A DNA stretch of 64,000 nucleotides from Negaprion brevirostris (Eukaryota). The first letter of the stretch is position 1; each line of letters begins with the position of its first letter. Position numbers: made by a program. The stretch is from contig JARDVH010000059.1 in NCBI GenBank assembly GCA_030324005.1, forward strand, positions 65,704,132 through 65,768,131, read 5' to 3'. Positions 18,001-21,000 of this stretch are shown piece after piece.

Positions 18001-21000
18001 TTTATTACCAGATTTGTTTTGGTAGTTTCTTGATTTGTGTGTGCATTTCAGATGTTAAAATATTTTTTAATGCAGCAAAGGCACATTATGGCTGAGAGAA
18101 ATGTGTTGTTGAAAAATGCGAAACATCCCTTCCTGGTTGGGCTTCATTATTCATTCCAAACCACAGACAAGCTCTACTTTGTTCTGGATTTTGTTAATGG
18201 TGGAGAGGTTAGTATTTCTATTTGAAGCAGTTGACTACTACAAACAGGTAACACTGAACTGTGATCTGCTATGACACCAAAAGAAACAGATTTCAGTATG
18301 TTTTAACACTTTAGAAAATTGATACTAATGTTAAAATGAAAAGACAAAAACAGACTACTGAAAGCTACTTGTGGGTAATTACATATAATAACTACTTCCT
18401 GTTTATTTTGATTTTGTTTTCTTTTCCCTTTGTCATATGTAGCATCAGTGTAGCTAATTTGTTCCAAGTTCTGCACTGGTGTTACATTAAGTATGCAAAA
18501 AAAATGCACTTCCTTATTATAAGGCCACTCGTGTATTACAATGCAGCCACTTGCGTGTGAGGAAGCAGCTGGCCTCAGTTTAATATCTTTTCCATTTCCC
18601 TACCGGCATTTTTGATTTGAAACTCCTTTCACCCCGAAATGAAAAGTTAATTCCAGTAGTCAAAACGTTATGCATTCCTTCTTGGCCTTTTGGCTAAGAT
18701 CAAATGTAGTTTTGGCATCCTGCACTTGATTGAAGTCATGGGGTTACTCTGAGGCTTCATTTGAAGCAATTTTTTAAAGCAGCATCTAGGCCTTTTGGCT
18801 TAGGTGCAAATGAGATCGAGCCTTGGAGAAGGTGCAATGCCTGCTCTGTGAGAAACACAGCTCACAGTTAAACAATTTAGTCAAGTCAAGTTATGAAGGA
18901 GCAAGATTTTTATTTAACTTTCTTGCAAGACCAGGTGTCCAACAAAATAGGCACACCTTACATCGATTTGCAGCACATTTTTATACTTTTTTACAAGCAT
19001 TGTAATGGCTNNNNNNNNNNNNNNNNNNNNNNNNNNNNNNNNNNNNNNNNNNNNNNNNNNNNNNNNNNNNNNNNNNNNNNNNNNNNNNNNNNNNNNNNNN
19101 NNNNNNNNNNATAATGTGGGTTATCAATGTGCCTGGCTATATCCGGTCTACCTAACTCTAAGCTATTTCTCTATGCTGTACAGATATGTGTTAACAGCAT
19201 CTTTACCTATTGCTCACATGCTCCAATCAGCTTGGATTATATAGATTAGGCCCAAGACAGGAAGTGGTGAGCCTCTCTTGTCAGCTTGGATCTGGAATGC
19301 CTCACTTGCTGAGACTTAGAATTGGACTTTTATATATATCTAATTCAATGCAATCAAAAAAAATTATTTTCTGTGTTCTTCCACCCTTGAGTTTTGAGCT
19401 TTATAGTCTTGCCTATTTCTGTAGTCTGCTCCAAATCTCAGCACAACTATTTTTTTGTCCAACTTTTGCTACTAGCACATGCATCACTTTCTTCACCACA
19501 CCATTTGTAACTCTGTCTTCAGCTTTCCAACTCCTAACTTGTGGAATGTTCTGCAACCTTGCACCTCTCTATCTCATTCATTGGCTTAAAAAGTGCTGTT
19601 TGCTATTTACTCCTTTGACCCAGCTTTTAATCATCTAGAATCGTATTTTCTGTTTGGGCTCTGTCAATTTTTGTAAGATAATACTCTTTTGAAGCACTTG
19701 TTATGATCCCGGAAAAGACCAATAACTTTAAATAAGAGATTTTATTTCCCAAATGACTGAAAGGGTCATATGTTAAGATTCAAATTTGAAGACTTTTACT
19801 GTTTACTGTACTAAAGCAACATCAACTAAACGCCATTTAAGGGCAACAATACTCTAAACTACAGCAAAGACATCCCCCCATTTCTTAATGACTAAAAAAC
19901 CCATGCCATAGATAAAATTTATTGCCTGCTGTCCGCAGAGTTTACAGTCTTTATGGGAAACAGTTACTCCCAGCTTCCAATAGGTTCGCTTCTCACTGTT
20001 TCATTGAGTCTCAAAAGATTTTCCAGCTTTTCCCACCAGTGGGATCTTGCAGTACCGCTGAAGGCAAGCCTCTGCAGCAGGGCAGGCAAACTTTGGCAGG
20101 ACAGAAACATCCCACTGCTGCCAATGACTCTACTGCCAGAAAACATCAGGGCTGGGGGTGGAGGAATCCCACCTGTCCGTCTGTCCACAATGTTGAGTGA
20201 TTGTCGAAATGTCTTTCTCTCAATTTCCAAAGAAGTTCCAAACCAACTGCCAGTAGTTAGACTTGCTCTGCCAATTCTTGGCCACGCTAGGACAAATCTT
20301 TCAGATTGCTTAGATCGCCAAGGGATGCATCTCTTCAACAGAAACCATCTTTCCTCTCGTATCTTGCCTTGTTGTCTACAGAAAAGACATACTCTGCTGT
20401 ACTGATTATACCAGCTACACCTCTCTGTGAGAACTCCCCTCTCTGTATCTCTTTCTGTCTGAAATTTCAGCAATAAAGTGTGCCACAGCTGTTTTTACCT
20501 TTGTTGTAGGTGTGAACATTTTACATGGTGATTGGGGGACCAAGCAAGATGATAACTAAGCCACCTGACTTCTTGTCAGGCAGAACTTATAACTGATTAC
20601 ATGACCCTCCATTCATTGAATCCCTACAGTGTGGAAGAGGCCATTTGACCCGTCGAGTTTGCACCAACTCTTTGAAAATGCACCTGACCCCACCTTNNNN
20701 NNNNNCCCCACACATTGATCATGGCCAATCCACCTAACCTGTACATCTTTGGACTGTGGCAGGAAGGCAGAGCAACCAGAGGAAACCCACCCAGACACGG
20801 AGAACATGCAGACTCCACAGACAGTCACCAAGGCTGGAATTGAAACCAGGTCCCTGGCGCTGTGAGGCAGCAGTGCTAACCATTGTGCCACCCTCCACTT
20901 TATCCTGAATTAAAGCAGCAAAACAGTCCAGGGGCCACACGCAGCCCATCAGGGTTCAAAGTGAGACCCATGAGACATTCTTGATGTTGCCCACATGCAG

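What the first reader, a model, noticed from the sequence alone, without database searches (positions are those of the whole stretch)
18674..18720. U2 homology stops at nt 37 in both copies, the site used by U2-targeting retrotransposons
Seen: both copies leave U2 right after ...GTGTAGT (nt 37), inside the branch-point recognition sequence GUAGUA. Known: Keno (Tx1 clade) and Utopia (NeSL clade) non-LTR elements insert site-specifically in U2 genes at about this position. U2 is transcribed by Pol II from an upstream PSE, so a U2 head provides no internal promoter. Inference: the master copy may be an insertion inside a real U2 gene, co-transcribed from the U2 promoter as U2(1-37)+element and then dispersed. 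That would be a route to SINE formation without a Pol III promoter. Alternative: a 3'-truncated U2 cDNA fused by template switching.
Basis: partly seen in the sequence, partly recalled or inferred. Interest (0 to 1): 0.7.

Follow-up and report, generated by a model that had tools for sequence, protein, structure and literature searches.

The report
U2-headed SINE-like retroposon, two copies
Two old, scattered copies of one short mobile element begin with the first 37-40 bases of the U2 spliceosomal RNA, so this looks like a new fish-side relative of the crocodilian "SINEU" elements, and how it got its U2 head stays open.

Summary
Two same-strand copies (18674-18828+ and 63849-64000, cut by the window end) share 150 nt at 83% identity. 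Each starts with a U2 snRNA 5' piece that leaves U2 after ...GTAGT, at nt 37 and possibly nt 40.

The 5' flanks are unrelated. Copy 2 sits inside a LINE-derived repeat. No other U2 sequence occurs in the window. These are therefore dispersed retrocopies of one composite retroposon, not U2 genes.

This architecture was described in 2015 as SINEU (Kojima, crocodilians only): a U2 head at the 5' end, repeated U2 pieces, internal T-runs and no Pol III promoter. The window's LINE relatives point to a shark, so I rate it a probable new member of a known kind.

The published Keno/Utopia site (U2 downstream part starts at nt 39) does fall inside the junction interval of nt 37-40. Neither visible copy is in a U2-gene context, and template switching explains the data equally well. 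The genome, Repbase and the element's 3' end were out of reach.

The parts
18674..18710 (+). Copy 1, U2-derived head (U2 nt 1-37; 18711-18713 could be decayed nt 38-40)
   Evidence: cmscan alignment to RF00004 positions 1-37, 42.2 bits for the whole hit. Matches the 27-nt pattern search.
18711..18784 (+). Copy 1, 74-nt spacer of unknown origin, shared with copy 2
   Evidence: 76% identical to 63881-63954 (18 differences in 74). Searched alone, it gives no U2 hit at E<=10. Contains a T6 run at 18770.
18785..18820 (+). Copy 1, second and older U2-like piece (stem-loop I)
   Evidence: 18786-18803 aligns to U2 model positions 8-25, 13.4 bits. Local alignment to head 1 scores 37 against shuffles of 18.1 +/- 3.2, reached by 0 of 300.
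18821..18873 (+). Copy 1, tail. Only 18821-18828 is confirmed as shared; the rest is assigned to the element only if the candidate target-site duplication is real.
   Evidence: Copy 2 is cut off at the base matching 18830. No A-run of 5 or more in 18674-19010. Assembly gap at 19011-19110.
18649..18672 (+). Candidate target-site duplication, upstream half (weak)
   Evidence: Gapped match to 18874-18895, score 21. Reached by 18 of 2000 shuffles and 53 of 3526 real-sequence controls. With the match required to abut the boundary, 38 of 5254 controls reach it. Longest exact word is 7 nt.
18874..18895 (+). Candidate target-site duplication, downstream half (weak)
18629..18646 (+). PSE-like motif upstream of copy 1; judged chance
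   Evidence: 10 of 12 specified positions of the consensus printed in PMC5493778. 39 such sites occur in the window on both strands, so 0.05 are expected in 2 x 80 nt. It lies at -45..-28, not about -60.
63849..63883 (+). Copy 2, U2-derived head (U2 nt 6-37, possibly to nt 40), 5'-truncated by about 5 nt
   Evidence: cmscan, 33.5 bits, aligned through GUAGUGUC. Homology of the flanking repeat ends at about 63848.
63884..63954 (+). Copy 2, spacer
   Evidence: Matches the copy 1 spacer: nhmmer E 2.3e-8 and 8.4e-9 in the two directions.
63955..63990 (+). Copy 2, second U2-like piece
   Evidence: 63955-63974 aligns to U2 model positions 7-26 with 20 of 20 identical, 16.8 bits, E 0.051 in a 61-nt search.
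63991..64000 (+). Copy 2 continues and is cut off by the window end
   Evidence: Alignment A1; repeat family D8.
63792..63848 (+). LINE-derived repeat into which copy 2 is inserted
   Evidence: 81% identical to 2232-2289. Aligns with family members at 844, 2220, 44788 and 50245 up to ...GAGGA.

Best explanation
These are two dead, dispersed retrocopies of one composite, non-coding retroposon of the SINEU type.

Structure. The unit reads: U2 nt 1-37(40), then a 74-nt spacer of unknown origin, then an older U2 stem-loop I piece (nt 7-26 or a little more), then a tail whose end is not visible.

Shown:
- The same junction and the same body occur in both copies.
- The 5' flanks are unrelated.
- The unit begins at U2 nt 1 in copy 1 and nt 6 in copy 2, as expected for a full-length and a slightly 5'-truncated LINE-mediated copy.
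- Copy 2 lies inside another repeat.
- The copies differ by K2P 0.20, with CpG-type decay.

Inferred:
- The element was copied by the reverse transcriptase of a partner LINE. The partner is unknown, and no tail match exists in the window.
- It was transcribed by Pol II from outside the element. A U2 head holds no promoter, and runs of T4-T6 inside would stop Pol III.
- It took up U2 sequence at its 5' end at least twice. The inner piece carries changes shared by both copies, so it is the older one. The outer head was still close to U2 when the family spread.

I rate 5' capture by template switching onto U2 snRNA (Kojima's explanation for SINEU) as somewhat more likely than capture by co-transcription from a U2 gene. 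The two cannot be separated with this window.
For: - Head matches U2.
- Shared 150 nt at 82.7% identity, blastn E 1e-39.
- Upstream 150 nt unrelated: score 16 against shuffles of 15.4 +/- 2.2, reached by 211 of 500.
- Copy 2 is embedded in a repeat family.
- Second U2 piece in both copies. The parts after each U2 piece are not similar (106 of 300 shuffles reach the score), so this is not a plain tandem duplication.
- 26 differences in 150 (16 transitions, 10 transversions) with 5 CpG-type sites. T-runs of 4 or more: 7 in copy 1 (18674-19010) and 3 in copy 2.
- ORFs of 90 aa or more next to copy 1 hit no Pfam family (0 of 4).
- Kojima 2015 (PMC4494074; introduction, results and discussion read) describes U1/U2 heads, recurrent 5' addition of U1/U2 pieces, internal oligo-T and no promoter found.
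Against: - Only two copies are seen, so family size is unknown.
- The 3' end is not defined. Copy 2 is cut by the window end and copy 1 runs into a 100-N gap.
- No poly(A) is seen, whereas all SINEU groups are reported to have one.
- The candidate target-site duplication is gapped and weak.
- The 74-nt spacer between the two U2 pieces is not what a direct 5' addition onto an older head predicts.
- No sequence comparison with SINEU, Keno or Utopia consensus sequences could be made.
Confidence: 0.7

Rival explanations
1. A Keno- or Utopia-type element, or a non-autonomous derivative, sat at its specific site in a real U2 gene. It was transcribed from the U2 PSE/DSE promoter as U2(1-38)+element. 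It was then dispersed off-target, and the head is a relic of the target site.
For: The junction interval of nt 37-40 contains the published site. PMC4640811, section 6, says downstream U2 starts at nt 39 and Keno's 3' flank is identical. A passage in PMC6136364 agrees. The unit starts at U2 nt 1, the U2 transcription start. In crocodilians the likely SINEU mobilisers (Tx1-Mar) cluster with Keno, and one of them carries a U2 head (PMC4494074, results).
Against: Neither visible copy is in a U2 gene. Copy 2 lies in a LINE-derived repeat. Copy 1 has no U2 nt 38+ in the window, and its PSE-like motif is at the wrong distance and at chance level. Base 38 is not A in either copy. The inner U2 piece starts at about nt 7 and is internal, which this model does not predict. 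SINEU also has U1 heads. No U1 target is listed in the legend of that paper's figure 3, and that no U1-targeting LINE is known is my recollection.
Confidence: 0.22
2. The two copies are independent chimeric retropseudogenes (U2 cDNA fused to another RNA by template switching in each event), not copies of one mobile unit.
For: Such U1/U2 chimeras are known in human (cited in the PMC4494074 discussion).
Against: Both copies share the same junction, the same 74-nt spacer and the same second U2 piece over 150 nt at 83% identity. Two independent events would not reproduce this.
Confidence: 0.03
3. A local segmental duplication of a decayed U2 pseudogene region, not a transposed unit.
For: The copies are on the same strand, 45 kb apart, and there are only two.
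Against: Similarity starts sharply at the U2 5' end. The upstream 150 nt are unrelated (211 of 500 shuffles reach the score). Copy 2's upstream flank belongs to a different repeat family that is absent upstream of copy 1.
Confidence: 0.03
4. A transcribed U2-like variant gene or regulatory small RNA that kept stem-loop I and most of the branch-site-binding sequence.
For: The U2-derived parts differ less between the copies (8 differences in 68 nt) than the spacer does (18 in 74). The PSE-like motif and a 7-of-8 octamer lie upstream of copy 1.
Against: Both hits are below the Rfam gathering score, and the U2 3' domains and stems II-IV are missing. The motif levels are at chance. Copy 2 has no such upstream motifs.
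Confidence: 0.02

Closest known systems
SINEU, especially SINEU-1 (Kojima 2015, PMC4494074; crocodilians)
   Same: A short non-coding retroposon whose 5' end is a short U2-derived sequence. More than one U-snRNA piece in a single element, the outer one younger (recurrent 5' addition). Internal oligo-T runs and no recognisable promoter. Old copies, roughly 10% diverged from their ancestor.
   Different: The host appears to be a shark rather than a crocodilian. A 74-nt non-U2 spacer separates the two U2 pieces. No poly(A) tail is seen. No Mariner-N4-type target could be checked. Sequence similarity to the SINEU consensus sequences was not tested because no repeat library was available.
SINEU-3 (internally deleted U2; 5' 32 bp plus a middle 83 bp of U2)
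   Same: The head is the first 30-40 nt of U2.
   Different: The body here is not detectably U2. The spacer alone gives no U2 hit at E<=10, and what follows is a repeat of stem-loop I, not the middle of U2.
Keno (Tx1 clade) and Utopia (NeSL clade), U2-gene-specific LINEs
   Same: Their insertion site (U2 nt 38|39 per PMC4640811) falls inside the junction interval of nt 37-40 found here. They insert in the sense orientation relative to U2.
   Different: No reverse transcriptase or endonuclease ORF is present. No U2 3' part follows the element. The copies lie outside U2 genes. Similarity of the body to Keno or Utopia ends could not be tested.
snRNA chimeric or tailless retropseudogenes (L1-mediated, human)
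   Same: A 3'-truncated U2 sequence joined to other sequence by reverse transcription.
   Different: Those are one-off events. Here the same chimera was copied at least twice.

Membership tests
SINEU | The 5' region is derived from a U1 or U2 snRNA gene and lies at the element's 5' end | tested here: met
   U2 model positions 1-37 at 18674-18710 and 6-40 at 63849-63883. Similarity between the copies starts there, and the upstream flanks are unrelated.
SINEU | A retrotransposition unit: several copies with the same structure, not independent chimeras | tested here: inconclusive
   2 of 2 visible copies share the junction, spacer and second U2 piece. With n = 2 and no genome to count in, this stays open. 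A third fragment at 42673-42740 is borderline (nhmmer E 0.054) and was not counted.
SINEU | 3' poly(A) tail (stated for all SINEU groups in PMC4494074) | tested here: inconclusive
   No A-run of 5 or more in 18674-19010. The 3' end may lie in or beyond the N gap at 19011-19110. Copy 2 is cut off at 64000.
SINEU | Short (under 500 bp) and non-coding | tested here: inconclusive
   About 200 bp if the weak target-site duplication is real. None of 4 neighbouring ORFs has a Pfam hit. The true 3' end is unknown.
SINEU | No Pol III promoter; internal oligo-T | tested here: met
   T4-T6 runs at 18688, 18710, 18770 and 18793 in copy 1, and at 63858, 63940 and 63963 in copy 2. ARAGORN finds no tRNA in the window. 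No tRNA, 5S or 7SL hit at these sites in Rfam.
SINEU | Sequence similarity to the SINEU-1, -2 or -3 consensus sequences | not testable with these tools
SINEU | Mobilised by Tx1-Mar LINEs, with shared target preference | not testable with these tools
   No eukaryotic genome collection was available. No tail match to any LINE piece in the window.
Keno/Utopia insertion in a U2 gene | The element is followed by U2 from nt 39 onward | tested here: not met
   For copy 1, there is no further U2 hit at E<=0.5 in the whole window. For copy 2, the 3' side is outside the window.
Keno/Utopia insertion in a U2 gene | The U2 5' part ends at the specific site (nt 38) | tested here: inconclusive
   The junction lies between nt 37 and nt 40. 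Base 38 is T in copy 1 and G in copy 2, not A.
Keno/Utopia insertion in a U2 gene | Encodes reverse transcriptase and endonuclease, or shares its ends with such an element | tested here: not met
   No Pfam hit in 4 of 4 ORFs around copy 1. Sharing of ends could not be tested.
Bona fide U2 snRNA gene | Full-length U2 above the Rfam gathering score, with a PSE at about -60 | tested here: not met
   42.2 and 33.5 bits against a gathering score of 46, and only the first 37-40 nt align well. The PSE-like motif is at -45..-28 and at chance level.

The most novel reading that the evidence does not exclude
The U2 head is not a template-switch product. It is the target-site relic of a Keno-type element that lived inside U2 genes and used the U2 snRNA promoter as its own. 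When a short non-autonomous derivative escaped target specificity, it carried U2(1-38) with it. On this reading, snRNA-headed SINEs arise by promoter hitch-hiking at the nt 38|39 site, arose independently in cartilaginous fish and crocodilians, and the inner U2 piece records an earlier round of the same process.
Probability: 0.2. Interest if true: 0.75.

Novelty: new member of a known kind. Interest (0 to 1): 0.45.

Why it matters
In the papers I could search, SINEU is reported from crocodilians only, and how these elements are transcribed and how they gain their heads is stated there to be open. A second, independent lineage in a cartilaginous fish would show that snRNA-headed retroposons are not a crocodilian oddity.

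It would also give a clean test. If heads in many copies and subfamilies end at the Keno/Utopia site, and a master copy sits in a U2 gene, co-transcription is the origin. If the ends scatter and show microhomology, template switching is. Either result bears on how a SINE can persist without an internal Pol III promoter.

Tried and rejected
- PSE/DSE upstream of copy 1. My recalled stricter motif matched once in the window, at 18629-18647, against 0.09 expected (9 of 100 shuffles had at least 1). I chose its 7-8 nt spacing after seeing the site. With the published consensus it is a 10-of-12 match, a level reached 39 times in the window, and it lies about 15 nt too close. An octamer with one mismatch lies at -181, against a background of 0.19 per 100 nt. 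Rejected as evidence for a U2-gene context.
- 3' box scan. 
- Is the spacer derived from U2 (Sm-site-like AAUUUUUU)? The full-model alignment of copy 1 placed it there at low posterior. Copy 2 was aligned differently, and the spacer alone gives no U2 hit. Rejected.
- Tandem duplication of a head-plus-body unit. Only the U2 stem-loop repeats. Rejected.
- A third copy at 42673-42740 (-). nhmmer E 0.054. Local alignment was reached by 0 of 300 shuffles against copy 1 but by 17 of 300 against copy 2, with a different register. No U2 stem-loop is present. Not counted.
- Partner LINE. No part of 18400-19010 or of the tail matches anything else in the window.
- Host taxon from near-length LINE relatives. 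55 hits, none with an organism name. The 'longer' search gave the shark names.
- Literature. No paper in the library pairs SINEU with shark. None describes a SINEU family outside crocodilians. One Daphnia preprint lists 'SINE_U' only as an annotation class.
- Closed or unavailable. 
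Full report
**What is there**

The finding's coordinates hold a real U2 snRNA 5' piece. A 27-nt stretch of it occurs twice in the window at up to 3 mismatches, at 18684-18710 and 63854-63880, both on the + strand. None of 100 shuffles gave two matches. Rfam finds nothing at gathering thresholds.

In E-value mode over the whole window, the only hits at E<=0.5 besides one hairpin repeat are U2 (RF00004). 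They lie at 18674-18825 (42.2 bits, E 4.3e-5) and 63844-63944 (33.5 bits, E 0.0052), against a gathering score of 46. The printed alignments follow the U2 model from position 1 to GUAGU (position 37) in copy 1. In copy 2 they run to GUAGUGUC, against consensus GUAGUAUC (position 40), with falling posterior.

The junction lies between nt 37|38 and nt 40|41.

**The repeat unit**

The two places share 150 nt: 18679-18828 against 63849-63998, 82.7% identical, blastn E 1e-39. Copy 2 then runs off the window.

- Similarity begins at the U2 5' end. The 150 nt upstream of each copy are unrelated (211 of 500 shuffles reach the observed score).
- Copy 2's upstream flank belongs to a LINE-derived repeat family with members at 844, 2220, 44788 and 50245. 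That homology stops at about 63848.
- Copy 2's head therefore starts at U2 nt 6, while copy 1's starts at nt 1.
- A fixed 5' end at the U2 start, one slightly 5'-truncated copy, and insertion into another repeat are what LINE-mediated retrocopies look like.
- The copies differ at 26 of 150 positions (16 transitions, 10 transversions, 5 CpG-type sites, K2P 0.20). Both are old.

About 75 nt after the head, both copies carry a second U2 piece, stem-loop I.

- In copy 1 it is 18786-18803, matching model positions 8-25 (13.4 bits).
- In copy 2 it is 63955-63974, matching model positions 7-26 with 20 of 20 bases identical to the consensus (16.8 bits).
- Head and inner piece align far above shuffles (0 of 300 in both copies). 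The sequences that follow each piece do not (106 of 300). This is a second U2 capture, not a tandem duplication of the unit.
- After position 26 the inner piece carries changes shared by both copies. This can be read directly from the sequences. I infer that it is the older acquisition and the outer head the younger.

The 74-nt spacer between the two pieces gives no U2 hit on its own, and its origin is unknown.

**Limits**

- Copy 1 runs into a 100-N gap at 19011-19110, which I left as it is. Copy 2 is cut at 64000. The element's 3' end is therefore not defined.
- No A-run of 5 or more lies between 18674 and 19010.
- A gapped match between the 24 nt just upstream of the head (18649-18672) and 18874-18895 could be a target-site duplication. 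That would give an element of about 200 bp. The match is weak: 18 of 2000 shuffles and 53 of 3526 real-sequence controls reach it, as do 38 of 5254 controls when the match must abut the boundary.
Copy number, subfamilies, master copies and the partner LINE could not be examined.
- Nothing else in the window matches the spacer or tail. A borderline fragment at 42673-42740 was not counted.

**Is either copy in a U2 gene?**

No.

- Copy 2 lies in a LINE-derived repeat.
- For copy 1, no further U2 sequence exists anywhere in the window at E<=0.5.
- Upstream of copy 1 there is a PSE-like motif at 18629-18646. It matches 10 of the 12 specified positions of the consensus printed in PMC5493778, a level reached 39 times in the window. 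That gives 0.05 expected in the two 80-nt upstream stretches. It also lies at -45..-28 rather than about -60.
- A stricter motif that I recalled from memory matched only there, but I tuned its spacing after seeing the site.
- An octamer with one mismatch lies at -181, against a background of 0.19 per 100 nt.
- I treat all of these as chance.

**Host**

A reverse-transcriptase fragment at 50537-51028 has five longer relatives at E<=0.001 among 162 candidates.

| Source of relative | Identity |
|---|---|
| *Mustelus asterias* (shark), NCBI, two proteins | 72% and 68% |
| *Oncorhynchus mykiss*, two proteins | 50% and 40% |
| Unnamed JGI protein | 47% |

The 55 near-length relatives carry no organism names. 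The abundant tRNA-SINE-like and LINE-tail repeats also recall elasmobranch genomes, but that is recollection, not a test.

I take the window for a cartilaginous fish, not a crocodilian and not human. One SGK-family kinase exon (31537-31635, +) was searched on its own.

**Comparison with what is known**

Kojima 2015 (PMC4494074; I read the abstract, introduction, results and discussion, not the figures or supplements) defined SINEU. These are short retroposons with U1- or U2-derived heads, found only in crocodilians. They show recurrent 5' addition of U1/U2 pieces, poly(A) tails and internal oligo-T, and no promoter was found. They are probably mobilised by Tx1-Mar LINEs that cluster with Keno. 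One of those LINEs, Tx1-11_Crp, carries a U2 head.

Kojima favours template switching for head capture and suggests transcription from flanking promoters. The element here has the same architecture, and T4-T6 runs lie inside both copies. It works like a SINEU. Membership is provisional for three reasons:

- the poly(A) tail is not seen;
- the family rests on two copies;
- no consensus comparison was possible.

The coincidence is real. PMC4640811 (sections 5, 6 and 8 read) states that U2 downstream of Utopia starts at nt 39, that a 1-38 fragment is expected upstream, and that Keno's 3' flank is identical. A passage of PMC6136364 places Keno 37 nt into U2, with 3' target TCTGTTCTTATC... I did not read Kojima and Fujiwara 2004 itself.

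The published site falls inside the nt 37-40 interval found here. This favours the co-transcription model modestly. Several points weigh against it:

- base 38 is not A in either copy;
- the inner U2 piece is internal and starts near nt 7;
- U1 heads in SINEU cannot arise this way;
- short U2 heads are common in SINEU anyway (SINEU-3 has 32 bp).

I put the SINEU-type retroposon reading at 0.7. Within it, template switching is somewhat ahead of U2-gene co-transcription, which I put at about 0.2 overall.

**Novelty**

The mechanism class is in print. In the library I searched, no paper pairs SINEU with sharks or describes a SINEU family outside crocodilians. One Daphnia preprint only lists 'SINE_U' as an annotation class. 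Repbase and Dfam could not be consulted, so the family may already be catalogued there.

My verdict is a probable new member of a known kind, of moderate interest, with a sharp and cheap genome-wide test of its origin.

Noticed in passing
31537-31635 (+): An SGK-family protein kinase exon. The best solved-structure match is Sgk1, E 9.7e-16. Both U2-headed copies lie on the same strand as this exon. Whether they sit in its introns was not established.
   Followed up: partly
17411-17507, with relatives at 16245, 25135, 46813 and 47858: A near-perfect hairpin repeat (46-nt arms, 93% complementary, 5-nt loop) that belongs to a small repeat family (I16-I18, D2, D3). It gives sub-threshold mir-3015-type hits on both strands. 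It looks like a MITE or part of a SINE.
   Followed up: no
49835-49923 and 50025-50113: An 89-nt direct repeat, 92% identical, sits on both edges of the 100-N gap at 49925-50024 (D13). It looks like an assembly duplication at a gap edge.
   Followed up: no
2953-3015, 3355-3417, 20820-20882, 31711-31799, 34229-34317, 40485-40530: Many copies of a tRNA-SINE-like repeat on both strands (D10, D14, D16, I3, I4, I7, I11, I13, I19). ARAGORN calls no tRNA.
   Followed up: no
61494-61829 (-), 50537-51028 (+), and 58820-59344 (-): LINE coding remnants: an endonuclease piece (PF14529, E 7.7e-6) and a reverse-transcriptase C-terminal piece. The best named relatives of the latter are two Mustelus asterias gene models, one annotated as an interleukin-6 receptor subunit, that include transposon domains.
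   Followed up: partly
42673-42740 (-): Borderline similarity to the spacer of copy 1 (nhmmer E 0.054; reached by 0 of 300 shuffles against copy 1 and 17 of 300 against copy 2). No U2 stem-loop is present. It could be a very decayed relative or chance.
   Followed up: partly
whole window: There are 19 N runs, 9 of them exactly 100 N. The window is a gapped scaffold, and one gap (19011-19110) lies right after copy 1.
   Followed up: no
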